The notes below the pieces were generated by a model that saw only the letters and a program-made list of their open reading frames with translations, made no database searches and was not told the DNA's origin. Positions 1 through 22,053 of a stretch of DNA of 64,000 bases are shown in pieces (positions within the stretch are counted from its first letter, which is position 1; each line of letters starts with the position of its first letter). The position numbers were made by a program, and so were the translations under genes. The stretch comes from a virus (taxonomy: Duplodnaviria > Caudoviricetes): the IMG/VR virus record IMGVR_UViG_3300011113_000415; one strand, given 5' to 3'.

Positions 1-213
1 GATGTGGAGGATCCAGACTTGTATGCGGCTGATCCTTTGTACAAATGGCAACAGAGTGAGGCGGGTGCTTGGGTAATGGCTCATGCTGTGGAGCCACCAT
101 TTTGGGTCAGGCAACCCGACCTCAGCAGTTACGGACATCGCTACTATATTGTAGCCAGACTTCGAGAACAAGATCAAACTTATTTTAGACTTAAATGGAG
201 TAATAACAAATGA
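1..213 (+). CDS. Hypothetical phage protein, probably 5'-truncated by the window edge
   Basis: Frame open from position 1 to TAA at 211-213; stop overlaps the next start; GGAG SD precedes the next gene. Confidence 0.6.
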   Translation, partial: DVEDPDLYAADPLYKWQQSEAGAWVMAHAVEPPFWVRQPDLSSYGHRYYIVARLREQDQTYFRLKWSNNK

Positions 214-1178
214 AATTTTTAGTAACAGGCGGCTTGGGCCTTATTGGTCACAATGTGGTTGAACGTTTACAAAAGCGTGGCGAAGAAGTTGTAATTGTAG
301 ACAATCGCACCACCTATGGTATCATACCACAGGCAGAACTAGACTATCTCATGGCCGAACGTTGGCAAAAAATTACACCAACAGATGTATACTACACTGA
401 CATTGCTGATGGTGATAAAGTTGATCAGATTGTGGCCACTCATCAGCCTCAAATAATCATACACATGGCGTCATTCCCAAGACAAAAAGTTGTCAATGCC
501 AACCCTGCCTGGGGTGCTAGGGTCATGATGGAAGGTTTGATGAACATCTGCGAGAGTGCCAAAAAACACCAAGTTGAGCGTGTGGTATATATAAGTTCAA
601 GCATGGTGTACGGTGACTTTGAAGACCAAGTGGAAGAAGAAGCCCAGTGTAATCCCATTGGCCAATACGGTATCATGAAACTGGCAGGAGAAGACATTGT
701 CAAAGACTATCATCGTCGTGGTTGTTTTGATTATGCTATTGTCCGTCCCAGTGCTGTATATGGGCCCTTGGATGTGGAGGATCGGGTGGTTGCAAAGTTT
801 ATGCTTCAGGCCATGCGTGGTGACATTCTCCGGGTCAACGGAGCAGGAGAAACACTTGACTTCACCTATGTTGATGATGCGGCAGATGGAATTGTGGCAG
901 CGGCCACAAGAGTTATGGCGGCAAATCGTACATATAATATCACCAAATCGCATTCAGTAAGTTTGCTAGAAGCCGCAGAAATGATTGTGAAGATTGTGGG
1001 TCGTGGAACAATTGAAGTTAGAGATCGTGATCAAGATTTTCCTAGTCGCGGCGCATTAAATATTGATCGCGCACGAGTGATCTTGGGTTTTGATCCCAAG
1101 GTAGATGTAGAACAAGGATTCAAAAATTACTACAACTGGCTTAACAATTCCCCATACTGGTCTCCGAAAACAGTATAA
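210..1178 (+). CDS. NAD-dependent epimerase/dehydratase (extended SDR, NDP-sugar modifying)
   Basis: Rossmann motif TGGLGLIG, SSSMVYG, catalytic YGIMK (YxxxK), DFTYVDD. Confidence 0.92.
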   Translation: MKFLVTGGLGLIGHNVVERLQKRGEEVVIVDNRTTYGIIPQAELDYLMAERWQKITPTDVYYTDIADGDKVDQIVATHQPQIIIHMASFPRQKVVNANPAWGARVMMEGLMNICESAKKHQVERVVYISSSMVYGDFEDQVEEEAQCNPIGQYGIMKLAGEDIVKDYHRRGCFDYAIVRPSAVYGPLDVEDRVVAKFMLQAMRGDILRVNGAGETLDFTYVDDAADGIVAAATRVMAANRTYNITKSHSVSLLEAAEMIVKIVGRGTIEVRDRDQDFPSRGALNIDRARVILGFDPKVDVEQGFKNYYNWLNNSPYWSPKTV

Positions 1179-2223
1179 CACGCTTCGCACAGAAATTCTG
1201 GATGTGACAGATGAAGTGTTGCGTTCAGGTGTTCTTATGAATGGCAACTACACCGCCGAATTTGAATCATGGTTAGCCAAGAAGAATAGTGTGAGTTATG
1301 CTGTGACCTGTCACTCAGGCACACAAGCACTTGAGATCTTGGCCAATTTTTATCGCGACCACGACCTGGCCTTTGTACATCCTCCCACAGTGATAGTGCC
1401 GGCCCTAACCTATCCTGCCACTGCCAATGCCTTCTTGCGATCAGGTTGGCAAGTAATCATTGGAGATACTGACCGTTATGGTCAGATTGACGTGAAAAAA
1501 ATGATCCAGGACCTAGACACACATTATCATGCTGTATGTGCTGTGGGCCTGTATGGGGCGGCCTTGCGTGACATGCCGCCAGTTGAAAATCGAGCCATCT
1601 TGATAGAAGATGCCGCACAACACTGGCTCAGCGATGGATGTAAGAGAACCGGCGTGGCCGCAGCCATCAGTTTTGATCCCACAAAGAACTTGGCCAATTA
1701 CGGCAATGGTGGTGCCATAGTGTCCAATGACAGAAATCTCTTAGACTATGCAAGAAACTGGATCAACAATGGCAAGCACACACGGCACGATCAGACTGGC
1801 ACCAACTCCCGAATGAGTGAAACAGATTGTGCTCAAATGATGATCAAAACACGACACATTGATGCCTGGCAAAAGCGGCGAGCAGACATTGCCCATTACT
1901 GGATTAGTCGACTCAAGAACACAGGCATACGTACCTTGATTGATGATTCTAACTTTTCAACTCACTGCTATCACAAATTTGTTATCGAACTAGACTCAAG
2001 AGATCGTGTGCAACGCAATCTGGCCATACGCAAGATTGAAACCCGGATACACTATGCTGAACCTTTGCACGAACTACCTGCGTATCAAAATCTTTCGGGT
2101 CCAGATCTACTGAGTCCGGCCAGTGCGCTGAGCCGCCGTTGTCTAAGCCTACCTATCTACCCGGAGTTGACAGATTTAGAGGTGGAATACATCATGGATC
2201 AACTGTTAGATTCCGCTTCATAA
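1126..2223 (+). CDS. DegT/DnrJ/EryC1/StrS-family PLP-dependent sugar aminotransferase; probable ATT start at 1126 (track start is GTG 1204)
   Basis: EDAAQ and SFDPTKNL (PLP lysine) motifs; family-like N-terminus IPHTGLRKQYNTLRTEIL lies upstream of the GTG. Confidence 0.88.
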   Translation: MTTTGLTIPHTGLRKQYNTLRTEILDVTDEVLRSGVLMNGNYTAEFESWLAKKNSVSYAVTCHSGTQALEILANFYRDHDLAFVHPPTVIVPALTYPATANAFLRSGWQVIIGDTDRYGQIDVKKMIQDLDTHYHAVCAVGLYGAALRDMPPVENRAILIEDAAQHWLSDGCKRTGVAAAISFDPTKNLANYGNGGAIVSNDRNLLDYARNWINNGKHTRHDQTGTNSRMSETDCAQMMIKTRHIDAWQKRRADIAHYWISRLKNTGIRTLIDDSNFSTHCYHKFVIELDSRDRVQRNLAIRKIETRIHYAEPLHELPAYQNLSGPDLLSPASALSRRCLSLPIYPELTDLEVEYIMDQLLDSAS

Positions 2224-4006
2224 ATGCATAGGTTGCCAACCAAGACCACTCATAACTTTTCTTGAGAGCCTCAAAGTCTCCACCAACCTGTTCATAGTAC
2301 TCTACAGCATCCTGCGCACCTTTGGAACTCCATTGTCCGGCTCCATGATCCACATCAAGCCAAACTTTCAATCTATATTCATTCTCCACATCAGGCAAAC
2401 TGGCTCGCAGTTTCAGTGCTTCACGGAACGCTGTGCGCCAAGCGATCCAGTTTGAAGTGTAATATATGGCTTCTCCTGACAAGATGGGCACAACTTCGTG
2501 TGGTTGATCCAAGGTGAAATCCAGTCCCTGTCCGGTATTTTCTAGCACCAACTTCCGATTATAGGCAATCATGCCTTGGTGACCGTATTCGAGATCGTTG
2601 ATGCTGTTTCTGGCATGAAAGATATAGTGCTTGGCCTGTTGCATGCGATCCGGCTGCCAACTCCAATCAAAGTCTTTGTTTACACGCAATTTGGCAAACA
2701 CAGCAAAGAACCAAGGTGTGGTACTCATTTCGGCCGCGGCATGATAGGCCGCCACACGCCCCGACACACCATCTGACCAGTGTATCCTATTGACAGCAGG
2801 CTGGGCCACAGTTGTTAACCAATTGAAGTTGGCTTCGGTATCCTTTTCACCATTAGAGATAAACACAATATCTAGGGGCTGATCTATATCATGTACACGA
2901 TGTGTTTTGTCTATATAGGGATAGTCATATAACTGTGTCTTGATATAAGGAACTGCTGTTTTGGGAACAATTACACTGCTGGCACCTAACGAAAGTGGTA
3001 CAACAGTTTTGGTTAGTTCTCTCCATAGCGGGATTGTTATCTTGGGCAACGATTCTGACTCACTTTTTGTAAACAGAGCCAATGGCCCTGCCCAGTCTAG
3101 GCTTCGAACAGCATCTGCTTGACTATCTAAATCATGTGTGATCACGGGTATAGGTCTACGTGGCACACTTATACTGATAAAGTTCACATCATACCATTCC
3201 AGCAAATCAACATGTTCTGCTCGAGCCGCAAATGTAGGCACATGCATAAAGAATGTGTCTCCAAATTTCTCTCCATTAGATGCAAACACATGCAACATTG
3301 TGGCTTGCCATTGCTCAGGGTGCCATGAAAAATCAAAGTTGGTGTAATCGCAAATTGAGGAACACACCCACACAAATTCATGTTCGGTGCCTATACTTCG
3401 AGCCAGTCGAATTAAAGTATCTCTATAGTTGTCAAAATATCGCACAGTGCGAGTGGTGTTGGCAATTTTCCCTGCGGCACCATCCATGTGATCAATTTCG
3501 TATATGGCTGTGGCCACTCGATTGGTGTGTACACGTATCTGATCCACAAACTTGATATCTGTGGCGCCAGGCACTCGATACTGTGGACCACCAGTGCGTT
3601 GGTGTTGTGTGCCAAATTGATATATGTAGGGAGGGTCTGTGAAGTCAGGATGCCAGGTCCAATCAAAACTTGCGGTGTCTATACCTTTAGGAACTTGCCA
3701 ACGACTTGGTTCTTTATGCACACGATTTACAACAGGTTCAGTATGATAATTAGTATCTGTGTATCCTTGTCTGGGCACAAGATACACACCAGCATCTTTT
3801 TGCCACTGGCTGGGCCAAGCATGTCTCTGATGACTTTGCCAGGGCGGGGGCTCCCAAAGAAAATCAAATGCCGAATAGTCCGCTAAGTATGTGATCCACC
3901 AAAAGTATCTAGTACGACTTTGCTTTTGTGCCTGTTCAACTGATTTTACCTGCCGTTCATGCGGAAATAAATTGGGTTTGGTGCCTGTATAAAATACATC
4001 AAACAT
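2192..4006 (-). CDS. Multidomain glycosyltransferase-like protein with four FD(W/F)xW(H/E/Q)P repeats and a C-terminal GT-A-like domain
   Basis: 604 aa; C-terminal DIVFISNGE...AYHAAA...HARN..N.L.YG block resembles ORF 18935..19861. Confidence 0.55.
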   Translation of the reverse strand: MFDVFYTGTKPNLFPHERQVKSVEQAQKQSRTRYFWWITYLADYSAFDFLWEPPPWQSHQRHAWPSQWQKDAGVYLVPRQGYTDTNYHTEPVVNRVHKEPSRWQVPKGIDTASFDWTWHPDFTDPPYIYQFGTQHQRTGGPQYRVPGATDIKFVDQIRVHTNRVATAIYEIDHMDGAAGKIANTTRTVRYFDNYRDTLIRLARSIGTEHEFVWVCSSICDYTNFDFSWHPEQWQATMLHVFASNGEKFGDTFFMHVPTFAARAEHVDLLEWYDVNFISISVPRRPIPVITHDLDSQADAVRSLDWAGPLALFTKSESESLPKITIPLWRELTKTVVPLSLGASSVIVPKTAVPYIKTQLYDYPYIDKTHRVHDIDQPLDIVFISNGEKDTEANFNWLTTVAQPAVNRIHWSDGVSGRVAAYHAAAEMSTTPWFFAVFAKLRVNKDFDWSWQPDRMQQAKHYIFHARNSINDLEYGHQGMIAYNRKLVLENTGQGLDFTLDQPHEVVPILSGEAIYYTSNWIAWRTAFREALKLRASLPDVENEYRLKVWLDVDHGAGQWSSKGAQDAVEYYEQVGGDFEALKKSYEWSWLATYAFMKRNLTVDP

Positions 4007-5135
4007 GATTAGAATAGACGAAATTTACGAAAATACATTTTTACCCTGGGTGCAAAAAAATTGTCCCAATACTTCACTATTTTATTGTGATCCTTTTGGT
4101 CGAAGCGATCCTGACAGTATTCTCTGCAGAGGACTTGCGGATGGTGGAGAGAAAAATAGCATATTCTTTTTTGATCAGGAACCTATACAATTAACTCAAC
4201 ACATTCCAACTTTTGACCGTTATTTTATGAACACTGGCTATGCCGCTCTTGATTGTAAATTTGTAGTATCTAGTGAAACCAACAGTGACAATCTTGATTA
4301 TATATGCAAACGTTTTCATTTGCGACCTTTTTATTATTTTTTCCACGGTTGGGCGGCATTGGATTGGTATAGAGGATACGACAAAACATTTTTGATCAAA
4401 CCACCGGATCAAAGACAAATAAAAAAAACTTTCTTTAGTCCTAATCGTATCATTGGAGGGGAGAGGAAACACAGAGTTTTAGGATTGTACCATATGGCAA
4501 GGCTCAATCTATTAGACAATCATATAAGTGTTCCTGAAGTTTGTCCTGTGGAAAACCAATCTATTCAACAAATTGCTTCTTATTTTGAAAATTATTGGCC
4601 CGCGCCCAATTGGGGTATAATGGATACAATATCAGCCATGTCTGTGCCTAGACTTTTTCCTGGAGAAGATACACAGAAAATGAGTAGTTGTTGGTTAGAT
4701 CAATTCGACCTAACAGCCGAATCTTTGGTATACTATGTTAGTGAAACTGTGTATTTTGGACGTAGACAACATTTAACAGAAAAAACATTTAAACCCATTG
4801 CTATGGGAATGCCATTCATTCTCAACGCACCTGCTGGTAGTCTTGCCTATCTTAAAAAATACGGATTCAAAACCTTTGACGGCATATGGAACGAAGGTTA
4901 TGACCAAAATACCAACGATTTAAATCGAGTTGAAGACTCGGTCAAAATATTGCACGGATTAGAGAGTCTTTCTCAGAAGGAAAAACAAAAAATATTTGAA
5001 AGATGCATTCCAATTATTGAACATAACTGGAATCATTTTTATAATGGTGGATTTGAAAAACTTTTGTGGGAGGAATTAACTTCCATGTTAGACAATCTCA
5101 AGGCAGCAGTGAATGGTGATTTATCTAGCCATTGA
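4005..5135 (+). CDS. Glycosyltransferase-like protein (GT10/fucosyltransferase-like TEK motif), paralog 1
   Basis: C-terminal YYVSETV...HLTEKTFKPIAMGMPF; AT-rich (18/60 GC at 4021-4080). Confidence 0.5.
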   Translation: MIRIDEIYENTFLPWVQKNCPNTSLFYCDPFGRSDPDSILCRGLADGGEKNSIFFFDQEPIQLTQHIPTFDRYFMNTGYAALDCKFVVSSETNSDNLDYICKRFHLRPFYYFFHGWAALDWYRGYDKTFLIKPPDQRQIKKTFFSPNRIIGGERKHRVLGLYHMARLNLLDNHISVPEVCPVENQSIQQIASYFENYWPAPNWGIMDTISAMSVPRLFPGEDTQKMSSCWLDQFDLTAESLVYYVSETVYFGRRQHLTEKTFKPIAMGMPFILNAPAGSLAYLKKYGFKTFDGIWNEGYDQNTNDLNRVEDSVKILHGLESLSQKEKQKIFERCIPIIEHNWNHFYNGGFEKLLWEELTSMLDNLKAAVNGDLSSH

Positions 5136-6303
5136 TCATAGAGACCATATATCTGGCAGGCCCATGCCCAATGGTATTCCTTTGGAACAACATCACATGA
5201 TCGAGCATATGGATAGTTATAGATTAGATTATCCAAGGATTATATATTATCTTCACCAATGTCGTATTCCAATGCAAATTGTTTCAACAGTTGATGCGCC
5301 TTTAGGTTCTTGGTATCCGGTAGTCTTGAGTTGGTTTGATTTTTCATTAGACTATTTTACAATGATTAGTGCAGTTGCTTTTGAACGCATACAGAAAAAA
5401 CAAATGCGTCTTGTGTTTACCTATCACGAAGGAGATAATCCTAAAAGAATAAGAGAAAGAATCAATCAGTTGTGCGCTGATCACTCAGTTGATCCTACCA
5501 TGACATGGCTCATAAGCGGTAACAGTTCAGCAGATTTAGTACCCGGTTGTATATACTGGCCAGAATTAGAATTTATGTATTGGCGTACAGTTGATAGATC
5601 AGCAGGTGCTCAGTATCATGAACACGCAAGATCGCGTGCGTTTACCGGATTGTGCAGGATAGACAAATTGTGGCGCAAGGTGTTCATGAGCGAACTATGG
5701 GCCGAGAATTTACACAATAATGGATACTTTAGTTATACCCAACACTTGCTAGGCGGCGAAGACAACTACTTTGAATGTGCATTGCGTAATGGTTATCTTC
5801 AAAAAAAACAAAGTCAAGTTGATAAATTTATCAAGGCAGGCCCTTTTTATGTTGATACCTTAGACTCACATGCTCACAACAATTATTCAGTGAATATGAC
5901 TGAACTGTATGAAGACAGTTATTTTAACATTGTATTGGAGACTATGATTGATGTAGACAACTCAGGTGGACAATTTTTAACAGAAAAAACATTCAAACCC
6001 ATATTCAATAATCAATTTTTTGTAGCGGTAAGCAGTCACAATCATATGGCACACCTGCGCGAACTAGGATACCAAACTTTTGGACGTGTGATAGATGAAC
6101 ACTATGACTCAATTGACAACAATCAACAAAGATTTGAGGCTGTGTTAGAAATCACTAAGAGTCTGTGTGCTCGGCAATTATCAGAGTTGCATGAGATCTA
6201 TCACGAATTACGGCCCGAGATCACGCACAACCATCAGGTGTTCATGGCAGGTATGAGGCATAGATTACAGGCCGTAGTTGATAGAATCAACTGCAAACAG
6301 TAA
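5113..6303 (+). CDS. Glycosyltransferase-like protein (TEK motif), paralog 2
   Basis: YFNIVLET...FLTEKTFKPIFNNQFF...LRELGYQTF...IDEHYD. Confidence 0.5.
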   Translation: MVIYLAIDHRDHISGRPMPNGIPLEQHHMIEHMDSYRLDYPRIIYYLHQCRIPMQIVSTVDAPLGSWYPVVLSWFDFSLDYFTMISAVAFERIQKKQMRLVFTYHEGDNPKRIRERINQLCADHSVDPTMTWLISGNSSADLVPGCIYWPELEFMYWRTVDRSAGAQYHEHARSRAFTGLCRIDKLWRKVFMSELWAENLHNNGYFSYTQHLLGGEDNYFECALRNGYLQKKQSQVDKFIKAGPFYVDTLDSHAHNNYSVNMTELYEDSYFNIVLETMIDVDNSGGQFLTEKTFKPIFNNQFFVAVSSHNHMAHLRELGYQTFGRVIDEHYDSIDNNQQRFEAVLEITKSLCARQLSELHEIYHELRPEITHNHQVFMAGMRHRLQAVVDRINCKQ

Positions 6304-7768: not shown

Positions 7769-7866
7769 TTGTAGATAAATGGATCTCGCTTGCGCAATTC
7801 TTTTAGTTTTTTACGATATCTAATTTCCAATGTAATTCTTGCCCAAAGTCTGCGTATCCAATTCAT
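7765..7866 (-). CDS. 33-aa basic micropeptide MNWIRRLWARITLEIRYRKKLKELRKRDPFIYK (not in ORF track)
   Basis: Translated by hand; fills the gap exactly with ATGA start/stop overlaps at both ends. Confidence 0.8.
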   Translation of the reverse strand: MNWIRRLWARITLEIRYRKKLKELRKRDPFIYK

Positions 7867-15148: not shown

Positions 15149-16466
15149 ACCATTCTTTTAGTTCAGGAAAGGCAGCACCAAAGTCTTTTGATCTGCGTTG
15201 ATCATATTGTGTGTAAAACTGCCGAAAATCATGTAATAATTTAGGACGATCAAATGCTTCTGAGTGCGGAGTTTTGACCACATCCAAATAATCAATCAAG
15301 CGTTGTGTGTGATTTACTTCGTGTTCGTGAATAAATTCTGAATTAGCCCAGTGCTCCAACCAGGTCTCTAAACGTTGTCTATAGACTGTTCGCAGATGGT
15401 TGGGCAGTACCAATGGTGATTGAAATGATGGAAAGCGTAGAATATTTAGTGTGAAACTGATAGCATCACGTCCGTATTCCAGTTTCCAATTCATTATACA
15501 TTCCAACAATTGATCCAAGGTGCTTAAACACAAGGCATTGATGGTTGACATCACATGTATGCCACGAAACTGCCCAGAGTCTAGAAGTCTTTCGACATTA
15601 TTAGCCCAGTCGTCCCATACTAGCCCATCACGGATATATTCTGCTTGAGTGGAGATTGCCTCATTTGACGTGTATAAGTCGATTGCCAGCCCGGCTGTAC
15701 TGTCAAGTAATCGGTCAATGTCAACGTCGGTGCCCAGGTTACTGTTGATAGCCAAGCGTGTAGTACTCTTGCCCTGATTATCTTTAAACCAATCAATGAG
15801 TCGCCAGGTGTGGGCGGACATGAGGGGCTCTCCTCCTGTGATTCTGAGTTCTGATAGTGTACGATGTAGATCCGTTTCCCACCAACTAAAAAATGCGTTA
15901 ACATAGGCATTATCCTCACCGTACGCAAACAGTTGAGAGTTGTCATGAGTGTGAGTAAAGTGGTTACGACCATCACTGACCAAGTTAGCGTAGGGTCCAT
16001 TATTTCTAATGTCCTTAACCCAAGTTGTGCTAAATGCAGGGTTGCAGTAACTACAAGCAAACTGACAAGTACGATCAAAAGCAATTTCCAAAGTACGGAG
16101 ATTGACGTCTTCTGTGGGTAGTAGATTTCTAGCCTCATGCAATGCCTCTATAGGATAAATTTTTGATTTATATACACGGTCTGACACAGCGTCGCGACCC
16201 ATGTCTTCAATCTTCCAGCAGTACTCACAGCCTGCGGGACGTTCTCCGGCCAGCATCTGGCGACGATCTTCTTTCTTTTGATCAGTATTGTGCAACAGCC
16301 TAGGGTTGGCCTGAACTCGATCAATGTCCACCAAATGGGCTGGAGGGTGGTGACAACTTGTGGTCATACCAGAGCCTAACCAAATGGTCGCATTGTACCA
16401 TTTTGCCGCACAAAAACTAGCCGAGAGTTTGTCTAATACTTGATGTTTGAATTCTAGATCGTTCAC
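15129..16466 (-). CDS. Radical SAM protein (KW subtype)
   Basis: CQFACSYC, GGEP; CAAKW...SCH...CEYC. Confidence 0.9.
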   Translation of the reverse strand: MNDLEFKHQVLDKLSASFCAAKWYNATIWLGSGMTTSCHHPPAHLVDIDRVQANPRLLHNTDQKKEDRRQMLAGERPAGCEYCWKIEDMGRDAVSDRVYKSKIYPIEALHEARNLLPTEDVNLRTLEIAFDRTCQFACSYCNPAFSTTWVKDIRNNGPYANLVSDGRNHFTHTHDNSQLFAYGEDNAYVNAFFSWWETDLHRTLSELRITGGEPLMSAHTWRLIDWFKDNQGKSTTRLAINSNLGTDVDIDRLLDSTAGLAIDLYTSNEAISTQAEYIRDGLVWDDWANNVERLLDSGQFRGIHVMSTINALCLSTLDQLLECIMNWKLEYGRDAISFTLNILRFPSFQSPLVLPNHLRTVYRQRLETWLEHWANSEFIHEHEVNHTQRLIDYLDVVKTPHSEAFDRPKLLHDFRQFYTQYDQRRSKDFGAAFPELKEWYDSIPV

Positions 16467-17572
16467 ACGTTGCTTTGGATAAAATTAACAAAGCGGTCAG
16501 GAAATTCGCTAAAGATTCTAGCACCTTCTGCCGCCAAGTGTTGTTGATTATACTTAGTTATAGCCATACTTGCAACCAGAAATTCCGCCATATCACTCCT
16601 ACACAGGTCTTGAACCACTTGGGCGATTCTATCCAATCGGTCTTGATTGTTGTCTATCAAGTCAAATGATTCGTCTATTAGATGACCAAATGTTTGATAT
16701 CCAGCACGATGCAGGTCTTGATAAAATCCGCGATTGGCCACTGCCACAAACGGATGTCCCATGGCAATGGGTTTGTAGATTTTTTCACTGCGTAGACTGT
16801 AAGGATAATCAAACACAGTTTCTGTGACCAAACTGAAATAGGTATCAATATAGGGTTCGGCACGAATGTACACGTCGCCCCATTTGTTATCAAACAGTTC
16901 ATGCTTGACAAAGGCATGTTGATATTGATTTTTCTGCCCTGAAACAAACTGTTCTACTTCGTAATTAGCGGGCAACAGTTGTATCTCACTGGGTCTTTCA
17001 AACAGATCAGTTGAGTAGGTATGATGATATACTGGAGTGGTATCTAGGTTGGTCCATAATGCATGAGTCAACAATCCTGTATCACGAATTTTTTCTATCA
17101 TGTATTTTCTGTGTGGTCTTGTGCGACCATTCAAGAACAAGAATTTATAGGGTTTGTGTAACTTGTTGTATATTTCATCTGCACGACCGCATTGTTCAGT
17201 GTTGCTTTCATAGCATGTTGCTCTGTAAGCATAATGATCGTAGACCATGCAGTTGAGTTCAGGCTCCATGTTGCCACACCCCACTAACAACAGTTTGTGA
17301 TTTTGAATTAAATCTAGCAATCCTAGCCGTTGACATTGAAGTTTGAGTGTTTGTGATCCTTCTGACGGATTGGCCAATATGGGCAAACAGGTCTCGGCCA
17401 GTTGTTTTACTCGATCGGCATAGCGATTTACAGTTTGTCTGGCTAGTATGACAATGTCACCGGGTTGAGATTCGTACTGCTCAAAATCCCAAAACGTGTC
17501 ATCCACCAGATGTTGTATTTCTGTATGTATCTCACAGGAAGTGTCACATACAAGTCTGCGATTACCTAGCAT
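16463..17572 (-). CDS. Glycosyltransferase-like protein (TEK/SEK motif), paralog 3; start moved to ATG 17572
   Basis: YFSLVTETV...RSEKIYKPIAMGHPF...GYQTF...IDESFD; KFLFLNGRTRPHR. Confidence 0.5.
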   Translation of the reverse strand: MLGNRRLVCDTSCEIHTEIQHLVDDTFWDFEQYESQPGDIVILARQTVNRYADRVKQLAETCLPILANPSEGSQTLKLQCQRLGLLDLIQNHKLLLVGCGNMEPELNCMVYDHYAYRATCYESNTEQCGRADEIYNKLHKPYKFLFLNGRTRPHRKYMIEKIRDTGLLTHALWTNLDTTPVYHHTYSTDLFERPSEIQLLPANYEVEQFVSGQKNQYQHAFVKHELFDNKWGDVYIRAEPYIDTYFSLVTETVFDYPYSLRSEKIYKPIAMGHPFVAVANRGFYQDLHRAGYQTFGHLIDESFDLIDNNQDRLDRIAQVVQDLCRSDMAEFLVASMAITKYNQQHLAAEGARIFSEFPDRFVNFIQSNV

Positions 17573-18935
17573 GATATTGACATTCTTTCCACCATGACCG
17601 CATTTCTGGAAATGTGGCCAAGAAATCTGTGCTACGTCGACGATCGTGTTCTGCAAAGAATCTATAAAAGTCTGCTCGTGCCTGGGAATGATCCTGATCT
17701 TGAGCACTACGCATCCAGGCGATGTCTCTGTCCAGTCGTGCCACTTCGTAGTCCTTGAATCCTTGATGTGGGTATCTTGGATCTTCCATGTGTTCCAGCA
17801 TAAATGCTTTGACTTCTTCTAATTTGACTACGTAACTTGGGGGCAAGATTTGTAGACTTTGCCAAGAGGGTGTGCGTAGCACAGGAGTATCAAACCATAT
17901 GCGTTGATAGTTGCGACTGTGCGTTCTTCTTAGGAACAGGATCCAGCCCAGTAATGATTTTAATCCTGTCACAGATAGATTGTTCATGGTAATGATAAAC
18001 GTGAGACTGTTGTAGGCGGGCACTTCGGTTAGATAGCGATCCACATTGTCAAACATTCGCATGTAGTCAAGACCGTGGCGTATGTATTCGGCCTGAGCAG
18101 GTATGCCCGAATCCACACTTACGTATTGCATGAAGTGTTCAATACGCCCGTCGCAGATTTTTTTCACTGAGTCAAGATACCGTTTGAACAATTCGGGTTC
18201 TACTGAGAAGTTGCTCGTGACATTTAGATGTAGTTTCTTAGAGGGATTCTCTAGCACATAATCAAACACTCGATAAGTGTTCCGGTCCATGAGTGGCTCG
18301 CCACCAGTCATTCTAAAATGTTCTAGTTCAGGGTATAGTGTGGGCCACCATGCCCAAAATGCATCAACATAGGGATTAGCATCCTTTACCGGAATAGGTC
18401 GATTACGCCCGGTAAAATGAGTAGGATCGTTATGAGTAGTGCTAGTTGGGTAGCCGCCCCACCGATCAACTTCTGCTTGCCATGTGGAACTAAATTGTGG
18501 ACTGCAATAACTACAAGCAAGATTGCAAGCATGGTTAAAATTAACTTCAACGTAACTAGGGATAACATCTTCTTCTCCTGAGGAATTTTTTATTTTGTCA
18601 AAATCTACGGCAGCCCAAGTCTCTCCTGAACGGTAGTGTCTGTCGCTGAGTTTGCCCTGATCTTCCATATTCCAGCAGTAACTGCATTCTGAGGGGCGCT
18701 CTTGACCCAACATAATTTTACGCTGTTGTTTTTTGTGTTCAGTATTGTGTAGTGCGGCAGGATTGATTGCTATTGCTTCAGGATCAATTGGGTGTAAGGG
18801 AGGATGATAACAACTGTTGTTGAGTCCTGTAGGCAAGTGTAGACTTACCTGTTTCCATTTGGCCAAACAAAGTGCTGGACCCAACTGATCTTTCATTTGT
18901 TCAGCAGAACTCATAAAAACACTTTTGTTTTCCAT
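17562..18935 (-). CDS. Radical SAM protein (KW subtype); start moved to ATG 18935
   Basis: CNLACSYC, GGEP; CLAKW...SCY...CSYC; TAATG overlap with the upstream gene. Confidence 0.9.
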   Translation of the reverse strand: MENKSVFMSSAEQMKDQLGPALCLAKWKQVSLHLPTGLNNSCYHPPLHPIDPEAIAINPAALHNTEHKKQQRKIMLGQERPSECSYCWNMEDQGKLSDRHYRSGETWAAVDFDKIKNSSGEEDVIPSYVEVNFNHACNLACSYCSPQFSSTWQAEVDRWGGYPTSTTHNDPTHFTGRNRPIPVKDANPYVDAFWAWWPTLYPELEHFRMTGGEPLMDRNTYRVFDYVLENPSKKLHLNVTSNFSVEPELFKRYLDSVKKICDGRIEHFMQYVSVDSGIPAQAEYIRHGLDYMRMFDNVDRYLTEVPAYNSLTFIITMNNLSVTGLKSLLGWILFLRRTHSRNYQRIWFDTPVLRTPSWQSLQILPPSYVVKLEEVKAFMLEHMEDPRYPHQGFKDYEVARLDRDIAWMRSAQDQDHSQARADFYRFFAEHDRRRSTDFLATFPEMRSWWKECQYHAR

Positions 18936-19861
18936 TACCAACCTTCTTGAGACCTAATAACATCAATCTCTCGGATCATGATTCCTCGATTGTGCCAATT
19001 TGATCTATAGTGATGCTTGAAGAATCTGCTGGCTTCGGCTGTGAGCATGTGCATGGGCAAGTCCAGTTGTGTAGCCAAGTCATCTGCCAGTCTGTTGGCT
19101 ATGATTTCTGGCTGATCGTTTTTAACTGTTTCAAAAAGTTCAGCAAGTGCCTCAAAGTTTTGTACCTGTAGGTAGTCCCAGTTTGTGAGCATGGTCATGT
19201 AAGTGCCCTGACGTGCGCCGGCAATTGACCAGTAGCCATAGTCCACATCCCCACCTACGTTGTGCCATATAGTCAAATGATCTAGATTGCGTTGGTGCAC
19301 ACGATCACGGAACTCTGCCACACTAGGTCTTGCTCCGCGATTCAAACACATCTTTACACCTTCACGGAAACCGGCACGCCAAGCGTGAAATGCTGACCCA
19401 TTGGGATAGGTAACTGAATAGCAGTCATGCATGGCCCAGTACATAGGGTCAAAACAAAATTCTATTTGTGTTTCTGTACGACCATCTGTGGCTTCGTGTG
19501 TGCGCATGTTGCGTACAAATTCACGTGTCCAGGAACTTAGGCCACCATTGCCGTACATGAGTCCGTTTACATGATTACGTGCTCTCCATCTAAACACAGC
19601 CTGCTCATAATCACCAGCAGGAAAATCCAATGTTTGATTAAAAAACGCCGGGTCGGGGAGATTGTCTCCATCAATGAGAATAAATCTTTCTGTATCACTT
19701 GCATCAGCGGCTGCCTTGTGTGCCGCGTCAGAGCCGAATACACCATCAATTCTTTGTGCCCATGGAACCATGTTTTTGATCTTGACCCAGAATTCTTCTT
19801 TTTGTGGTTCATCATATGATAGGTAAATGCAATCTAAATCTGCTATGTCAATCTTGCTCAT
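18935..19861 (-). CDS. GT-A-fold glycosyltransferase-like protein
   Basis: DCIYLSYDEP, DAAHKAAA, LIDGDN (DxD-like), WRARNHVNGLMYGNGG; resembles the C-terminus of 2192..4006. Confidence 0.55.
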   Translation of the reverse strand: MSKIDIADLDCIYLSYDEPQKEEFWVKIKNMVPWAQRIDGVFGSDAAHKAAADASDTERFILIDGDNLPDPAFFNQTLDFPAGDYEQAVFRWRARNHVNGLMYGNGGLSSWTREFVRNMRTHEATDGRTETQIEFCFDPMYWAMHDCYSVTYPNGSAFHAWRAGFREGVKMCLNRGARPSVAEFRDRVHQRNLDHLTIWHNVGGDVDYGYWSIAGARQGTYMTMLTNWDYLQVQNFEALAELFETVKNDQPEIIANRLADDLATQLDLPMHMLTAEASRFFKHHYRSNWHNRGIMIREIDVIRSQEGW

Positions 19862-20189
19862 ATTGTTTTAATTTCCATTGTTGATTGAATTTTTGCTTAC
19901 TCACAACAACAGCAACATCATCAGGGTGACAAGGTGTTCCTGTGCTACTGGGCACTAGTTTTGGTGGGAGTGGCCGCTTGCGTGGTGTTAACACCCCATT
20001 GACTACACGCACCTGCAGGTCTCTCAATGCAAACTGTTCTGGAGTAAGGTCAATGTACTTACCAGGTTGATCTTCGTGACTGTAAAACAATGGTAGTCCT
20101 GAATCATCATAGTAAAGTCTGTAGTAAACCTTTTTCTCTTCAGGCCATTGGAAATTTTTCCAAAAGTCTAGAAATTCTTGATCATTCAC
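19848..20189 (-). CDS. Hypothetical protein
   Basis: 113-aa ORF coupled to both neighbours. Confidence 0.7.
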   Translation of the reverse strand: MNDQEFLDFWKNFQWPEEKKVYYRLYYDDSGLPLFYSHEDQPGKYIDLTPEQFALRDLQVRVVNGVLTPRKRPLPPKLVPSSTGTPCHPDDVAVVVSKQKFNQQWKLKQYEQD

Positions 20190-20958
20190 TGCGCCAATCC
20201 TTTACGTGATAGTGTACCGCGCCCCATTGTGCAACTGTATTGAATCTAAGTGGGTTGTATTCCCAAACCAATTCTTGTGTCCAATTGTGTGACTGCGTGG
20301 GTATCATGTGGCGTTTCATATGCACGATTCGAGGATAACTGGCAAATGGCATAGTGACTTGTTCTGGTCCTACTATCTGTGCGGCCATAGCATACACTAG
20401 ATCTGTAGAAGGCACATCGTCTGGAAACTTTAACAAAGTGCGATATTCAGTCCAGTTTTCGAATATGTTGCGTACTAATTGAAAAAACTCTTGTGCTGTT
20501 TGACTCACTCGCCAGTAGGTGATAGCATTGTAAACATCGGGTAAATGGTTAGCGTCAAACACTTTTCTGTAATATCTACTCTCAGCCGGTTGATCATAAA
20601 AGTCTCTGGCGCCTGTGGATATCACAACATCTCTATGTTCCAGCATGGTCCACCAGTGATCAATTGCGCTGGCTATGACCATGTCTGCTTCCAACTTAAT
20701 GGTTTGTCTAAATGGGCTGGCGCGAAACACCTGCCAATCATTGGCATAAGGATTATCACTAAGTGGTTGTTCAAATGTTTTGTAATAATCTATCAAATGC
20801 GGCCAATTGGCATCTGTCCTATCAGTAAGCAAACACACCTTGGCCTCAGGATGATGCGTCTTGAGTGTTTTGATCAAGTTATAGGCACAGTCTATGTAAT
20901 TGATTTCGGCAGTATTTACTGCTGTAATCAAGTAACCACGTTCATCCACTATTGGCAA
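20182..20958 (-). CDS. Glycosyltransferase-like protein (GT8/nucleotide-diphospho-sugar transferase-like)
   Basis: GYLITAVN...YIDCA start; TIKLEADM (DxD-like); paralogous to the neighbouring gene. Confidence 0.55.
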   Translation of the reverse strand: MPIVDERGYLITAVNTAEINYIDCAYNLIKTLKTHHPEAKVCLLTDRTDANWPHLIDYYKTFEQPLSDNPYANDWQVFRASPFRQTIKLEADMVIASAIDHWWTMLEHRDVVISTGARDFYDQPAESRYYRKVFDANHLPDVYNAITYWRVSQTAQEFFQLVRNIFENWTEYRTLLKFPDDVPSTDLVYAMAAQIVGPEQVTMPFASYPRIVHMKRHMIPTQSHNWTQELVWEYNPLRFNTVAQWGAVHYHVKDWRSE

Positions 20959-21748
20959 CTATGTCTCCTAAATGCTTTTTGCCCATGGCATGGAAACTGG
21001 TACCAGCCCAGGCTATCTTTTTTAGACGTTTGTTATCCAAATATTCTATGGCAAAAAAGTCTTCATCCAATTGTGTAAGAGTGTGTTCAGGCATGACACT
21101 GGCCAGATCAAATGGTATGTTGTCTACTGTTAGTGTATGGCCGCTTATAATGCCCAGTGCAATACTGAGAGCGTAGTCGTTACGATAGGTAGAGCCTTGT
21201 ATGTGATAAAGATCTTTGTAGTGGCGCCAGTTTTCACGTATCATACTCATGCTGTCAAAAATGTATTGTGCGGTATTTGATCGGCGAAACATCATCACAG
21301 TAGCCCACCACATGGGCATGCGATTGTGTCCAAACCAGTTGAGACCTTCAAAATCATTCATGTTGGTCATGTCCCAGGCCAATCTGTGACACATAAAGTC
21401 TTGTGGACTGTTGAGCACTGTCGATAATTCGTTGCCGCACACCACATAGTCGGCATCTAGTACTAGAGTTTGATCCCAAGGAGTAAGTGAATATGCGTCA
21501 GTTCTACCTGCGTTATGCCAAGACACAGTCGCTTGATAATCCTCAAACCAACGTGTTCCTCCTGTGGCAGCATCTGCTGTAATGACTTGATCAAATCCGC
21601 TAACTCTTGGATCTCCTGGATCTGCGTCTGTGACGATGGCCACCGGAATGTTGAGGTGGCGACGAATTCTTCGAGCACTCCAGCCAGCCATAGCAACATA
21701 GTCGGTTTGTTCATTGTCAAACGCAAATATCAATGCGCCTGTGGTCAT
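20942..21748 (-). CDS. Glycosyltransferase-like protein (GT8-like)
   Basis: GALIFAFDN...DYVAMA; SLTPWDQTLVLDADY (DxD); YRND. Confidence 0.6.
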   Translation of the reverse strand: MTTGALIFAFDNEQTDYVAMAGWSARRIRRHLNIPVAIVTDADPGDPRVSGFDQVITADAATGGTRWFEDYQATVSWHNAGRTDAYSLTPWDQTLVLDADYVVCGNELSTVLNSPQDFMCHRLAWDMTNMNDFEGLNWFGHNRMPMWWATVMMFRRSNTAQYIFDSMSMIRENWRHYKDLYHIQGSTYRNDYALSIALGIISGHTLTVDNIPFDLASVMPEHTLTQLDEDFFAIEYLDNKRLKKIAWAGTSFHAMGKKHLGDIVANSG

Positions 21749-22053
21749 CGTTTTTGACTTTGCTCATTATATTCTACCAACCAAGCATTCATTTGCTCTT
21801 GCCAGTGTGCATGCGCCTGGGCAAATAACTCAGGTACATTCACACGCACAGGAGTTTCATACAAGTCTAATATCACCACATCCTTGTCTTGAGCACAACT
21901 CAACAACACACATTGTAGTTCGGGTCCTGCTCGCCACATGCCGCCGGCATGAGCAAACAACATTCGAGCCTCATATTTTTCTTTTAACACACGGCGTGCG
22001 GCCACGTGATCAAAACGTGCTCGTGCATGAGCAATCAAATTGTCAGTATTCAT
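21745..22053 (-). CDS. Hypothetical protein, first gene of the minus-strand tailoring operon
   Basis: 102-aa ORF downstream of a terminator/promoter. Confidence 0.7.
   Translation of the reverse strand: MNTDNLIAHARARFDHVAARRVLKEKYEARMLFAHAGGMWRAGPELQCVLLSCAQDKDVVILDLYETPVRVNVPELFAQAHAHWQEQMNAWLVEYNEQSQKR

What the first reader, a model, noticed from the sequence alone, without database searches (positions are those of the whole stretch)
210..21748. ~21-kb phage-encoded sugar-tailoring cluster built around seven radical SAM enzymes
Seen: 7 CxxxCxxC/GGEP radical SAM ORFs in 8893-18935, an O-carbamoyltransferase, a DegT aminotransferase, an NDP-sugar epimerase and ~7 glycosyltransferase-like ORFs, nearly all coupled by overlapping start/stop codons and sitting next to the tail module. 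Established: Twitch-type radical SAM enzymes such as BtrN and NeoN oxidise or epimerise sugars, and TobZ/NodU carbamoylate sugars. Inference: this is a secondary-metabolism-like pathway that builds a heavily modified glycan or hypermodified base for the virion surface, phage DNA or host envelope. I do not know of a characterised phage system with this many radical SAM paralogs.
Basis: partly seen in the sequence, partly recalled or inferred. Interest (0 to 1): 0.88.

Follow-up and report, generated by a model that had tools for sequence, protein, structure and literature searches.

The report
Phage glycan cluster with seven radical enzymes
An uncultured freshwater jumbo phage carries, directly behind its baseplate and fibre genes, a deeply conserved operon of about seven sugar-transferring enzymes, a carbamoyl-adding enzyme and seven diverged copies of an uncharacterised iron-sulfur "radical SAM" enzyme, which most likely builds and chemically edits a sugar coat by chemistry nobody has yet described.

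Summary
Seven ORFs (8893-18941, minus strand) all exceed the curated cut-off of NCBIfam NF033640 (N_Twi_rSAM: twitch-like 4-Cys domain placed before the CX3CX2C core). They sit with a NodU/TobZ-type carbamoyltransferase, a DegT aminotransferase, an extended-SDR sugar enzyme and seven Pfam-silent ORFs. Fold, fusion and motif evidence marks those seven as glycosyltransferases: three firmly, four weakly. Fourteen genes (u102 to u345) overlap end to start.

The module is a core feature of a very abundant clade of about 335-353-kb T4-like jumbo phages. Five radical SAM orthogroups, the carbamoyltransferase and the transferases keep their order in 80 of 80 related loci. Two radical SAM genes (rS2, rS4) and the SDR/DegT pair vary. 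A Thr-rich roughly 330-aa protein always precedes the block.

No cluster protein has a membrane segment. Relatives lack a ThyA-type hydroxymethylase. This favours cytoplasmic glycosylation of a phage protein over DNA or envelope modification, but the target and the radical chemistry remain inferred. No similarity specific to BtrN was found, and no paper describes the family's function.

This scan had already flagged the same module in a relative (e1-5338232). It also flagged five more paralogues elsewhere in this genome (e1-5373898).

The parts
210..1178 (+). Extended-SDR NDP-sugar epimerase/oxidoreductase. It is variable among relatives.
   Evidence: Pfam Epimerase 8e-46. The best NCBIfam hit is dTDP-glucose 4,6-dehydratase at 7e-37, below its cut-off. 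The motif reads ISSSMVYGD and YGIMK, without the Asp-Glu dyad of RmlB-type dehydratases. Orthologues occur only in L042 and L064-66 among close relatives, but again in distant L082 and L084.
1204..2223 (+). DegT/DnrJ/EryC1 PLP sugar aminotransferase. It is variable among relatives.
   Evidence: Pfam 8.8e-59. The nearest NCBIfam models are PseC and WecE-type 4-aminotransferases, all below their cut-offs.
2192..4006 (-). 604-aa protein. The N-terminal half is unknown; the C-terminal half is a paralogue of the 18935-19861 transferase-like family.
   Evidence: BLASTP 27% over 245 aa, E 1e-8. The family HMM hits the equivalent genes in L082 and L084.
4005..5135 (+). GT-B 'TEK-motif' glycosyltransferase paralogue (GC 0.36, variable among relatives).
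   Evidence: Shares the C-terminal domain with 16463-17572 and 5113-6303. GC.
5113..6303 (+). GT-B 'TEK-motif' glycosyltransferase paralogue (GC 0.39, variable among relatives).
   Evidence: 40% identity to the C-terminal domain of 16463-17572, E 6e-18. Alignment A5.
6287..7768 (-). NodU/CmcH/TobZ-family carbamoyltransferase, the last gene of the long minus-strand operon.
   Evidence: Pfam Carbam_trans_C 1.4e-47 and Carbam_trans_N 1e-34. Single copy, inside the module, in three complete relatives. Orthologues at 61-83% identity in 68 loci.
7863..8900 (-). Conserved 345-aa protein of unknown function. The model shows a cyclophilin-like barrel with an inserted helical bundle.
   Evidence: AF2 model with pLDDT 86.5. 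No Foldseek match in the PDB. VIA Z 8-9 to cyclophilins, within the noise range. TM 0.77-0.82 to uncharacterised cellular proteins in AFDB. Always lies between the carbamoyltransferase and rS1.
8893..10191 (-). rS1: N_Twi_rSAM, subtype PW..CC, core orthogroup.
   Evidence: NF033640 273 bits. Orthologues at 69-83% identity. Starred clade.
10169..11302 (-). rS2: N_Twi_rSAM, subtype PW..CC, variable, GC 0.36.
   Evidence: NF033640 241 bits. No orthologue in the 80 IMG/VR loci. Rarer orthologues at 60-74% identity, and 31-42% relatives at the same position in L082 and L084.
11299..12507 (-). rS3: N_Twi_rSAM, subtype PW..CC, core orthogroup.
   Evidence: NF033640 344 bits..
12504..13925 (-). rS4: N_Twi_rSAM, subtype KW..SCH, variable.
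   Evidence: NF033640 227 bits. Orthologues at 73-75% identity only in L016, L044, L048 and L073. Its clade includes a dispersed copy from relative G002.
13886..15148 (-). rS5: N_Twi_rSAM, subtype PW..CC, core orthogroup and the most conserved.
   Evidence: NF033640 392 bits. Orthologues at 74-90% identity in 80 listed loci, out of 220 found. More than 7600 database clusters.
15129..16466 (-). rS6: N_Twi_rSAM, subtype KW..SCH, core orthogroup.
   Evidence: NF033640 290 bits..
16463..17572 (-). GT-B glycosyltransferase (GT10-like TEK motif) lying between rS6 and rS7. The true start is 17572, not 17707.
   Evidence: The Atlas record starts at residue 46. AF2 model with pLDDT 80.7. Foldseek top hit 2NZW at 5e-4, with all other hits GT-B. 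VIA Z 11-13.7.
17562..18941 (-). rS7: N_Twi_rSAM, subtype KW..SCY, core orthogroup. It always follows the 18935-19861 gene.
   Evidence: NF033640 307 bits..
18935..19861 (-). Probable GT-A-type transferase with a DGD motif. It is the most conserved gene of the module.
   Evidence: Mean column identity 82%. 1335 representative clusters; fused behind GT-B domains in proteins of about 740 aa. Weak GT2-clan hits in 9 of 50 members. Linked to a GT1 gene in Roseibium album and to N_Twi_rSAM genes in Bdellovibrionia.
19848..20189 (-). Conserved 113-aa protein of unknown function.
   Evidence: Orthologues in 70 loci at 34-83% identity.
20182..20958 (-). GT8-like GT-A transferase candidate (motif LEADM).
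   Evidence: Paralogue of 20942-21748. The top profile hits in the PDB are glycogenins and NleB, but at E 0.3-0.7. phrog_1903.
20942..21748 (-). GT8-like GT-A transferase candidate (motif LDADY).
   Evidence: Atlas clusters named nucleotide-diphospho-sugar transferase score 0.99, and Mannosyl_trans3 scores 0.96..
21745..22053 (-). Conserved 102-aa protein, the first gene after the terminator. Function unknown; a fibre chaperone is possible.
   Evidence: Orthologues in 58 loci at 56-92% identity. Homologue at the same place in L092.
22066..22098 (-). Intrinsic-terminator-like hairpin plus T-run that separates the structural genes from the enzyme operon.
   Evidence: 9-bp stem with 5 G-C pairs, followed by TTTTTTCTTT.
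22115..23116 (-). Thr-rich 333-aa protein (23.7% Thr; 45% Thr+Ser+Gly). It is the last gene of the baseplate/fibre block and the candidate glycan acceptor.
   Evidence: Composition. A homologue always lies directly upstream of GT8-like x2 plus the 18935-type gene, in close and distant relatives and in mis-binned phage contigs.

Best explanation
The block is a soluble, cytoplasmic glycan-building and glycan-editing pathway of a T4-like jumbo phage. It is co-directional with, and lies immediately downstream of, the baseplate/fibre genes.

Shown:
- Gene content.
- Membership of the seven radical SAM enzymes in NF033640.
- A GT-B fold for one transferase family.
- Deep conservation of gene order.
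- Absence of membrane proteins in the cluster.

Inferred mechanism:
- The two GT8-like GT-A enzymes and the DGD-motif enzyme start a glycan on Ser/Thr of a phage structural protein. The likeliest acceptor is the Thr-rich 333-aa protein encoded just upstream.
- The GT10-like GT-B paralogues extend the glycan.
- The SDR/DegT pair, where present, supplies an amino-sugar donor.
- Each N_Twi_rSAM orthogroup uses a 5'-deoxyadenosyl radical to abstract one particular sugar C-H. The N-terminal four-Cys cluster handles the electron, giving epimerised, oxidised, deoxygenated or C-C-linked sugars.
- The carbamoyltransferase caps a hydroxyl or amine.

The five fixed orthogroups would perform fixed edits. 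The variable ones (rS2, rS4), together with the low-GC transferases, would diversify the coat.
For: - All seven enzymes are N_Twi_rSAM above the curated cut-off, with invariant cluster Cys and GGEP.
- Glycosyltransferase-type genes are interleaved with them.
- Synteny of the carbamoyltransferase, u345, five radical SAM orthogroups and the transferases holds in 80 loci.
- The same order holds in relatives whose rS2-type enzyme is only 31-42% identical, and these also carry DegT and the SDR.
- The tree shows ancient orthogroups with long branches between paralogues and short branches within groups.
- A kernel of Thr-rich protein, GT8-like x2, DGD enzyme and a radical SAM gene recurs in divergent phage contigs. 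The order giant protein, p204, s407, Thr-rich protein, module is kept in L092.
- No hydrophobic 19-mer exceeds 1.43 in any cluster protein.
- The DGD family is linked to N_Twi_rSAM genes in Bdellovibrionia chromosomes and to GT1 in Roseibium album.
- No ThyA-family gene is found in three 95-100% complete relatives.
Against: - No glycan, acceptor or reaction has been observed.
- Four of the seven 'transferases' rest on weak evidence (E 0.03-0.7, or language-model similarity).
- The GT-B model matches T4 DNA beta-glucosyltransferase as well as it matches FucT (Z 13.0 against 12.1), so the fold does not exclude DNA as acceptor.
- A terminator separates the Thr-rich gene from the enzymes.
- In Bdellovibrionia, and at dispersed loci in relatives, N_Twi_rSAM genes occur without fibre genes or the other transferase families. 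The enzymes are therefore not tied to virions as such.
- Fibre proteins are often Thr/Ser/Gly-rich without being glycosylated.
- The co-folding test of 20942-21748 with the Thr-rich protein gave no answer.
Confidence: 0.45

Rival explanations
1. The cluster makes a free or carrier-linked, heavily tailored pseudo-oligosaccharide, such as an aminoglycoside-like or nucleoside-sugar metabolite. This product would act in the infected cell or on competitors and would not be attached to the virion.
For: - The enzyme set (DegT aminotransferase, SDR, TobZ/NodU-type carbamoyltransferase, twitch-type radical SAM, soluble transferases) mirrors aminoglycoside and nucleoside-antibiotic pathways.
- All the proteins are soluble.
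- Bdellovibrionia carry a mini-cluster of the DGD family plus radical SAM genes with no structural genes nearby.
- A cyanophage paper annotates a DegT-like, amidinotransferase and radical SAM trio as 'antibiotic synthesis genes' (PMC12801897).
Against: - No cyclitol synthase, resistance gene or exporter was found in the window.
- The module is fixed next to the baseplate/fibre genes and the Thr-rich protein across distant phages.
- The SDR/DegT pair is dispensable in most relatives.
Confidence: 0.2
2. The radical SAM paralogues modify protein rather than sugar. They would install cross-links, epimerisations or other radical edits in the fibre/baseplate proteins, as RiPP SPASM/twitch maturases do. 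The transferases would glycosylate the same protein independently.
For: - The best PDB sequence match to the family profile is a RiPP cyclopropyl synthase (8VPO, 7.6e-9), followed by SkfB and anSME.
- rS2 hits PapB, CcpM and SCIFF maturase models at 1e-8 to 1e-12, all far below their cut-offs.
- The structural genes are adjacent.
Against: - These matches cover only the generic radical SAM core.
- Pfam found no RRE/PqqD-type domain in any paralogue.
- There is no short Cys-, Gly- or repeat-rich precursor ORF. The only intergenic gap inside the operon is 94 nt.
- In Bdellovibrionia and Vibrio phage K566 the partners are again transferase-like or unknown enzymes, not peptides.
Confidence: 0.12
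3. The cluster hypermodifies phage DNA, for example by glycosylating, carbamoylating or radical-editing bases, to evade restriction as T4 glucosylation does.
For: - The phage is T4-like.
- The GT-B model superposes on T4 beta- and alpha-glucosyltransferases at Z 13.0 and 11.4.
- A dCMP deaminase gene lies inside the module in L084.
- From my own knowledge of Lee et al. 2018 (not checked here), radical SAM and PLP enzymes occur in thymidine hypermodification pathways.
Against: - No ThyA-family hydroxymethylase is present in three 95-100% complete relatives, whereas the control genomes were detected.
- There was no Tet/JBP hit, but that search rang in no control genome, so it is uninformative.
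- The Z scores are tied with many non-DNA GT-B enzymes.
- The constant linkage to a Thr-rich structural protein is unexplained by this reading.
Confidence: 0.08
4. The cluster remodels the host cell envelope (O-antigen, capsule or S-layer glycan) during infection, to block superinfection or to aid release.
For: From my own knowledge, cyanomyoviruses and other large phages often carry carbamoyltransferase and sugar-nucleotide genes that have been proposed to alter host surfaces. The SDR/DegT pair is typical of O-antigen loci.
Against: - No polyprenyl-phosphate transferase, flippase, polymerase, ligase or ABC exporter is present, and no cluster protein has a membrane segment.
- The phage looks strictly lytic and T4-like.
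- The module is co-oriented with the late structural genes.
Confidence: 0.07

Closest known systems
NCBIfam NF033640, N_Twi_rSAM ('twitch domain-containing radical SAM protein')
   Same: All seven paralogues match the model end to end, above its curated cut-off. They have the N-terminal four-Cys domain, CX3CX2C and GGEP.
   Different: The family has no characterised member or known substrate; no paper was found. Here it is expanded to seven linked copies, with more elsewhere in the genome, in two subtypes (PW..CC and KW..SC[HY]). It is embedded in a phage transferase operon.
BtrN / NeoN-type twitch radical SAM sugar dehydrogenases and epimerases (aminoglycoside biosynthesis)
   Same: One auxiliary [4Fe-4S]-type Cys motif in addition to the SAM cluster. 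The context includes aminotransferase, carbamoyltransferase and glycosyltransferase genes.
   Different: The auxiliary domain is N-terminal, not C-terminal. BtrN (4M7T) is absent from the profile hits against PDB sequences at E <= 0.01. No 2-deoxystreptamine genes are present.
Virus-encoded virion glycosylation systems: Mimivirus fibril clusters, chlorovirus PBCV-1 capsid glycans and mycobacteriophage capsid/tail glycosylation (the Freeman et al. 2023 paper is cited in PMC12801897)
   Same: Virus-encoded soluble glycosyltransferases and sugar-nucleotide enzymes (a dehydratase/epimerase plus a DegT-type aminotransferase) are encoded beside structural genes.
   Different: None of those systems is known to include radical SAM enzymes or a carbamoyltransferase. 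Glycosylation has not been demonstrated here.
H. pylori alpha1,3-fucosyltransferase (GT10, PDB 2NZW)
   Same: It is the best Foldseek match of the 16463-17572 model (E 5e-4, probability 1.0). Both share the C-terminal [ST]-E-K...K-P motif.
   Different: There is no Pfam PF00852 hit and sequence identity is 7-10%. By VIA it is tied with many other GT-B enzymes, including T4 beta-glucosyltransferase.
TobZ / NodU / CmcH O-carbamoyltransferases
   Same: Both Pfam domains are present above their cut-offs.
   Different: It scores far below the NodU equivalog cut-off (137 against 1000 bits). It is about 80 residues shorter than TobZ (from my own knowledge). The substrate is unknown.
Radical SAM plus transferase cassette of Vibrio phages K566/K567 (OZ196521)
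   Same: Four N-twitch radical SAM paralogues are clustered in a large T4-like phage.
   Different: Identity is only 21-27%. None of the transferase families of this module was detected there with my HMMs. The cassette is not adjacent to annotated fibre genes in the record.

Membership tests
NCBIfam NF033640 N_Twi_rSAM | Whole-protein score above the curated cut-off of 170 bits, with end-to-end model coverage | tested here: met
   Scores of 273, 241, 344, 227, 392, 290 and 307 bits. Model positions about 1-398 are covered in all seven.
NCBIfam NF033640 N_Twi_rSAM | Twitch/SPASM-like Cys domain placed N-terminal to the CX3CX2C radical SAM core | tested here: met
   Invariant C32, C51, C93 and C96 precede C140, C144 and C147. 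The Pfam SPASM hits lie at residues 9-97, ahead of the Radical_SAM hits.
NCBIfam NF033640 N_Twi_rSAM | Binds two [4Fe-4S] clusters and cleaves SAM reductively | not testable with these tools
   This needs anaerobic reconstitution, EPR or Mossbauer spectroscopy and a 5'-deoxyadenosine assay.
BtrN-type twitch radical SAM dehydrogenase | C-terminal twitch domain and detectable sequence similarity to BtrN | tested here: not met
   The auxiliary domain is N-terminal. BtrN is not among the 15 PDB sequences hit by the paralogue profile at E <= 0.01.
RiPP radical SAM/SPASM maturase system | RRE/PqqD-like recognition domain and an adjacent short precursor-peptide gene | tested here: not met
   Pfam found no RRE-type domain in any paralogue. 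The operon junctions overlap, leaving one 94-nt gap and no short Cys-rich or repeat ORF. The 102- and 113-aa proteins are ordinary in composition.
NodU/CmcH/TobZ carbamoyltransferase | Carbam_trans_N plus Carbam_trans_C domains above the Pfam gathering scores | tested here: met
   120.9 bits (cut-off 24) and 161.9 bits (cut-off 27).
NodU/CmcH/TobZ carbamoyltransferase | Equivalog-level identity to NodU | tested here: not met
   NF041651 scores 137 bits against a cut-off of 1000.
DegT/DnrJ/EryC1 sugar aminotransferase | Pfam PF01041 above the gathering score over the full length | tested here: met
   200 bits (cut-off 19.8), covering residues 3-334. No NCBIfam equivalog cut-off is reached.
RmlB-type NDP-hexose 4,6-dehydratase | Catalytic Asp-Glu dyad in the TDEVYG motif, plus YxxxK | tested here: not met
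   The sequence reads ISSSMVYGD, with YGIMK present. TIGR01181 scores 127 bits against a cut-off of 365. It is therefore filed only as an extended-SDR sugar epimerase/oxidoreductase.
GT10 fucosyltransferase (CAZy GT10 / Pfam PF00852) | Pfam PF00852 match | tested here: not met
   No Pfam hit even at E 5. The Atlas feature similarity is only 0.80.
GT10 fucosyltransferase (CAZy GT10 / Pfam PF00852) | GT-B two-Rossmann fold with the C-terminal E-K nucleotide-sugar motif | tested here: met
   Foldseek hit 2NZW at E 5e-4, and VIA Z 12.1 over 261 residues. E251, E263, K264 and K267 are invariant across three paralogue families.
GT-A (GT8/GT2-like) glycosyltransferases, for 18935-19861, 20182-20958 and 20942-21748 | Rossmann-like GT-A fold with a DxD motif and a significant family match | tested here: inconclusive
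   DGD, EADM and DADY motifs are conserved. Only weak hits were found: GT8 at E 0.3-0.7 and GT2 clan at 0.03-1 in 9 of 50 members. Atlas labels score 0.96-0.99. Fusions to GT-B domains exist.
T4-type DNA hydroxymethyl-pyrimidine glycosylation | ThyA-family dCMP/dUMP hydroxymethylase encoded by the phage | tested here: not met
   No PF00303 match in G001-G003 (95-100% complete relatives), while 10 control genomes were detected. The window's own genome could not be searched.

The most novel reading that the evidence does not exclude
N_Twi_rSAM enzymes are a new class of glycan-editing radical enzymes. They would act on sugars already attached to a phage baseplate/fibre protein, with each orthogroup making one position-specific edit. 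The phage coat would then carry sugars (epimerised, deoxygenated, C-branched, carbamoylated) that no host pathway can make. The variable paralogues would diversify this coat in an arms race with host or grazer recognition.
Probability: 0.25. Interest if true: 0.9.

Novelty: new variant of a known kind. Interest (0 to 1): 0.72.

Why it matters
Virus-encoded glycosylation is known from giant viruses and mycobacteriophages, and radical SAM sugar tailoring is known from antibiotic pathways. The two have not been seen combined.

Here an uncharacterised radical SAM family is expanded to seven linked copies, with at least 6-9 per genome in relatives. It is fixed in one of the most abundant jumbo-phage lineages in freshwater metagenomes: more than 8000 distinct 90%-identity clusters exist for a single module gene.

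The finding gives enzymologists a defined and conserved set of partner genes and a candidate acceptor with which to assign a first function to NF033640. If virion glycans are confirmed, it would show that phages use oxygen-sensitive radical chemistry to build their surface. That bears on host recognition, on immune and grazer evasion, and on the discovery of new sugar chemistry.

Tried and rejected
- **Pfam, PHROG and NCBIfam** found nothing for the seven transferase-like ORFs or for u345, u113, u102 and the Thr-rich protein.
- **Profile searches of PDB sequences** with alignments A3, A4, A5, A7 and A8 gave nothing usable.
- **hhalign** of the DGD family against the GT8-like family showed no relation.
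- **The search for related loci** with the seven-paralogue alignment failed for lack of a conserved stretch.
- **The search for homologous proteins** with the DGD-family alignment was saturated by close orthologues.
- **Megablast** of 8000-20000 against cultured phages found no match. Only three cultured phages have any tblastn hit to rS5.
- **u345**: Foldseek PDB found no match. VIA Z 8-9 to cyclophilins lies within the tool's stated noise range, and the ESM Atlas gave TM <= 0.35. Its function is left unknown.
- **Whole-genome search** of the window's own genome was not possible.
- **Tet/JBP search** was uninformative, because it rang in no control genome.
- **RNA evidence**: three RNA-labelled runs hold only contigs of relatives or small shares and cannot show transcription.
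- **Co-folding** of 20942-21748 with the Thr-rich protein gave no answer, which is no evidence either way.
- **T4 late promoter** TATAAATA is not enriched: 2 matches against 1.7 expected.
- **4,6-dehydratase assignment** of 210-1178 was considered and rejected on the missing Asp-Glu dyad.
- **16463-17707 as an eighth radical SAM** was considered and rejected. It has no CX3CX2C and is a GT-B enzyme.

Full report
**What the window is.** Portal gp20 (60870-62648; Pfam Portal_T4, 8e-102) is about 50% identical to those of Agrobacterium phage Atu_ph07, Pseudomonas phage PA5oct and Cronobacter phage GAP32. The window also holds a baseplate wedge (37771-41211), hub/lysozyme-like genes and an SbcCD-like pair. 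Together these mark it as part of a T4-like jumbo myophage. No whole genome is held for it. The database copy of one of its proteins lies on a 334,901-bp contig. Close relatives are complete at 342-353 kb, one of them with terminal repeats.

**The observation.**
- ORF listing and family scans confirm seven radical SAM genes between 8893 and 18941 on the minus strand.
- All seven match NCBIfam NF033640 (N_Twi_rSAM) end to end at 227-392 bits, against a cut-off of 170.
- In their alignment, four Cys (C32, C51, C93, C96 in rS5 numbering) precede the CX3CX2C motif (C140, C144, C147). GGEP is invariant.
- Two subtypes are visible. rS1, rS2, rS3 and rS5 have C-x2-PW...CC. rS4, rS6 and rS7 have C-x2-KW...SC[HY]. 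The second subtype forms a 100/100 clade.
- The ORF at 16463-17707, which the array encloses, is not a radical SAM enzyme.
- The carbamoyltransferase (6287-7768), the DegT aminotransferase (1204-2223) and the extended SDR (210-1178) are confirmed by Pfam.
- The SDR's best NCBIfam model is dTDP-glucose 4,6-dehydratase, but below the cut-off. It reads ISSSMVYGD where RmlB-type enzymes have the Asp-Glu dyad. I therefore file it only as an epimerase/oxidoreductase-type SDR.
- With the longest ORFs, the fourteen genes from 22053 down to 7863 overlap at all thirteen junctions, by 4-40 nt.

**The Pfam-silent ORFs.** All-against-all BLASTP groups them into three paralogue sets.
- *Set 1: 4005-5135, 5113-6303 and 16463-17572.*
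  - They share a C-terminal domain with invariant E251, E263-K264 and K267.
  - An AlphaFold model of 16463-17572 (pLDDT 80.7) finds H. pylori alpha1,3-fucosyltransferase first (E 5e-4). After that it finds only GT-B glycosyltransferases.
  - The second-look aligner gives Z 11-13.7 over about 270 residues. FucT, T4 beta-glucosyltransferase and protein O-glycosyltransferases are tied.
  - These three are GT-B glycosyltransferases that work like GT10 enzymes, but they fail the Pfam GT10 test.
  - The Atlas record shows that the true start of the middle gene is 17572.
- *Set 2: 18935-19861 and the C-terminal half of 2192-4006.*
  - This is the most conserved gene of the module (82% mean column identity) and has an invariant DGD motif.
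  - The family has 1335 representative clusters.
  - In proteins of about 740 aa it follows a GT28/EryCIII/UDPGT-type GT-B domain.
  - The only recurrent Pfam signal among 50 diverse members is the GT2 clan, in 9 members at E 0.03-1.
  - In Roseibium album it lies in an operon with a GT1 gene.
  - I call it a probable GT-A transferase.
- *Set 3: 20182-20958 and 20942-21748.*
  - They have EADM and DADY motifs.
  - Thirteen of fifteen PDB profile hits are glycogenins or NleB, but at E 0.3-0.7.
  - Atlas neighbours are named nucleotide-diphospho-sugar transferases.
  - The evidence is weak but consistent.
- *7863-8900.* It folds confidently (pLDDT 86.5) into a barrel with a helical insert. It matches only uncharacterised cellular proteins. 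Its function is unknown.

**Conservation.**
- rS5 has orthologues at 74-90% identity in 220 IMG/VR contigs and in more than 7600 database clusters. The DGD gene saturates the search at 8000 clusters. This is one of the commonest uncultured jumbo-phage lineages.
- In 80 loci, the carbamoyltransferase, u345, rS1, rS3, rS5, rS6, the GT-B gene, rS7, the DGD gene, u113, both GT8-like genes, u102 and the Thr-rich protein are present in the same order. The only exceptions are loci cut short at their ends.
- rS2 has no orthologue in these loci. rS4 has one in only four. The SDR/DegT pair appears in four.
- The variable genes rS2, 4005-5135 and 5113-6303 have GC 0.36-0.39, against 0.44 for the window.
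- Rarer contigs hold rS2 orthologues at 60-74% identity. Contigs whose rS2-type protein is only 31-42% identical still hold the whole module, with DegT and the SDR.
- A maximum-likelihood tree recovers each of the seven as a supported orthogroup. Branches within groups are short and branches between groups are long. These are old paralogues that have been kept separately.
- Relatives carry 5-7 copies in the module and 6-9 above the cut-off genome-wide.

**What it acts on.** Four lines of evidence bear on this.
1. *No membrane machinery.* No cluster protein has a hydrophobic 19-mer above 1.43. No polyprenyl-phosphate transferase, flippase, polymerase or exporter was found. This argues against envelope polysaccharide assembly.
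2. *DNA glycosylation.* Three 95-100% complete relatives lack any ThyA-family gene. This removes the usual route to glycosylatable hydroxymethyl-pyrimidines. The window's own genome could not be checked, and the Tet/JBP search was uninformative.
3. *Position.* The module is co-oriented with the baseplate genes and lies immediately downstream of them, after the 4204-aa protein, p204, s407 and a 333-aa protein that is 23.7% Thr. That order survives in a distant relative. The kernel of Thr-rich protein, GT8-like x2, DGD enzyme and a radical SAM gene recurs in divergent phage contigs, many of them mis-binned into MAGs.
4. *Cellular genomes.* The DGD family and N_Twi_rSAM genes are also neighbours in Bdellovibrionia chromosomes, without any fibre gene. 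The enzymatic partnership is therefore more general than virions.

A strong terminator-like hairpin (22098-22066) separates the Thr-rich gene from the enzymes.

**Mechanism.**
- I commit to a soluble pathway that glycosylates a phage structural protein, most likely the Thr-rich one, and then edits the sugars. Each radical SAM orthogroup would abstract a specific sugar hydrogen, the N-terminal cluster would relay the electron, and the carbamoyltransferase would cap the product.
- Gene content, family membership, one fold, synteny and solubility are shown. The acceptor, the order of steps and the chemistry are inferred.
- I put about 0.75 on 'sugar/glycan pathway' and 0.45 on the full statement.
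- The rivals are a free tailored oligosaccharide (0.2), protein-directed radical chemistry (0.12), DNA hypermodification (0.08) and host-envelope remodelling (0.07).

**Comparison with the known.**
- The enzymes are members of NF033640, a catalogued but uncharacterised family. No paper on it was found.
- They are not BtrN-like in architecture or sequence. The best PDB match is a RiPP cyclopropyl synthase, and only over the generic core.
- Virus-encoded glycosylation clusters are the nearest systems in concept, but none is known to include radical SAM enzymes.
- A cyanophage paper merely annotates a DegT-like, amidinotransferase and radical SAM trio as 'antibiotic synthesis genes'.
- The same module was already followed up in a relative by this scan (e1-5338232). 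My independent tests agree with that note. They add the orthogroup tree, the GT-B fold, the Thr-rich kernel and the cellular contexts, and they show that relatives lack a hydroxymethylase and that the cluster proteins lack membrane segments.

**Verdict.** This is a real, conserved and unusual module. It is a new variant of virus-encoded glycosylation, in which an uncharacterised radical SAM family has been recruited and multiplied. Interest 0.72.

Noticed in passing
window 25157-37771 (-): One 4204-aa ORF lies between the baseplate wedge gene and the fibre-region genes. It has only faint FG-GAP and CBM5/12 signals. A 4157-aa counterpart holds the same place in a distant relative (L092).
   Followed up: partly
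window 55784-56710 (+): An eighth radical SAM gene of a different type, without an N-terminal twitch. Its best NCBIfam hit is the tungsten-cofactor maturase model at 3e-13, far below the cut-off. It overlaps the 3' end of the SbcC-like ATPase gene at 54109-55872.
   Followed up: no
window 10169-11302 (-): The database copy of rS2 (P0391, 354 aa) starts 23 residues downstream of the GTG start. That cuts off the first Cys motif (FC..PW..CC) of the auxiliary domain, so the longer ORF is the plausible gene.
   Followed up: partly
window 4004-4007: The longest ORFs of 2192-4006 (-) and 4005-5135 (+) have divergent start codons that overlap. This leaves no room for promoters, so at least one start is probably further inside its ORF.
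   Followed up: no
window 52001-54000: A low-GC island (0.33 against 0.44) covers small ORFs of unknown function between the metallophosphoesterase and the SbcC-like gene.
   Followed up: no
L093 and L094 (NZ_JBBAKG010000001.1 and ...003.1): Two contigs of 183 kb and 148 kb in one Haliscomenobacter MAG each carry the whole module, with the DGD gene 81% and 75% identical. They are probably phage contigs mis-binned into the MAG, and at best a weak hint of the host. Similar phage-like contigs sit in MAGs labelled Legionellales, Polynucleobacter, Fischerella, Neomarinimicrobiota, Rickettsiales and Pacearchaeota.
   Followed up: partly
L017 4547-7569: In the complete relative G001, an extra short N-SPASM radical SAM gene (358 aa) lies between the DGD gene and rS7. 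The rS7 orthologue there carries an unexplained N-terminal extension of about 190 aa (649 aa in total).
   Followed up: partly
L084 17013-17534: In a distant relative, a dCMP deaminase gene lies inside the module, between the carbamoyltransferase and a u604-like gene.
   Followed up: no
L173 (Bdellovibrionia, JAUICP010000004.1) 10001-16602: A chromosomal mini-cluster in a predatory bacterium holds two DGD-family genes and three N-twitch radical SAM genes. It is flanked by housekeeping genes (MoxR ATPase, SppA peptidase). The partnership therefore exists outside phages.
   Followed up: partly
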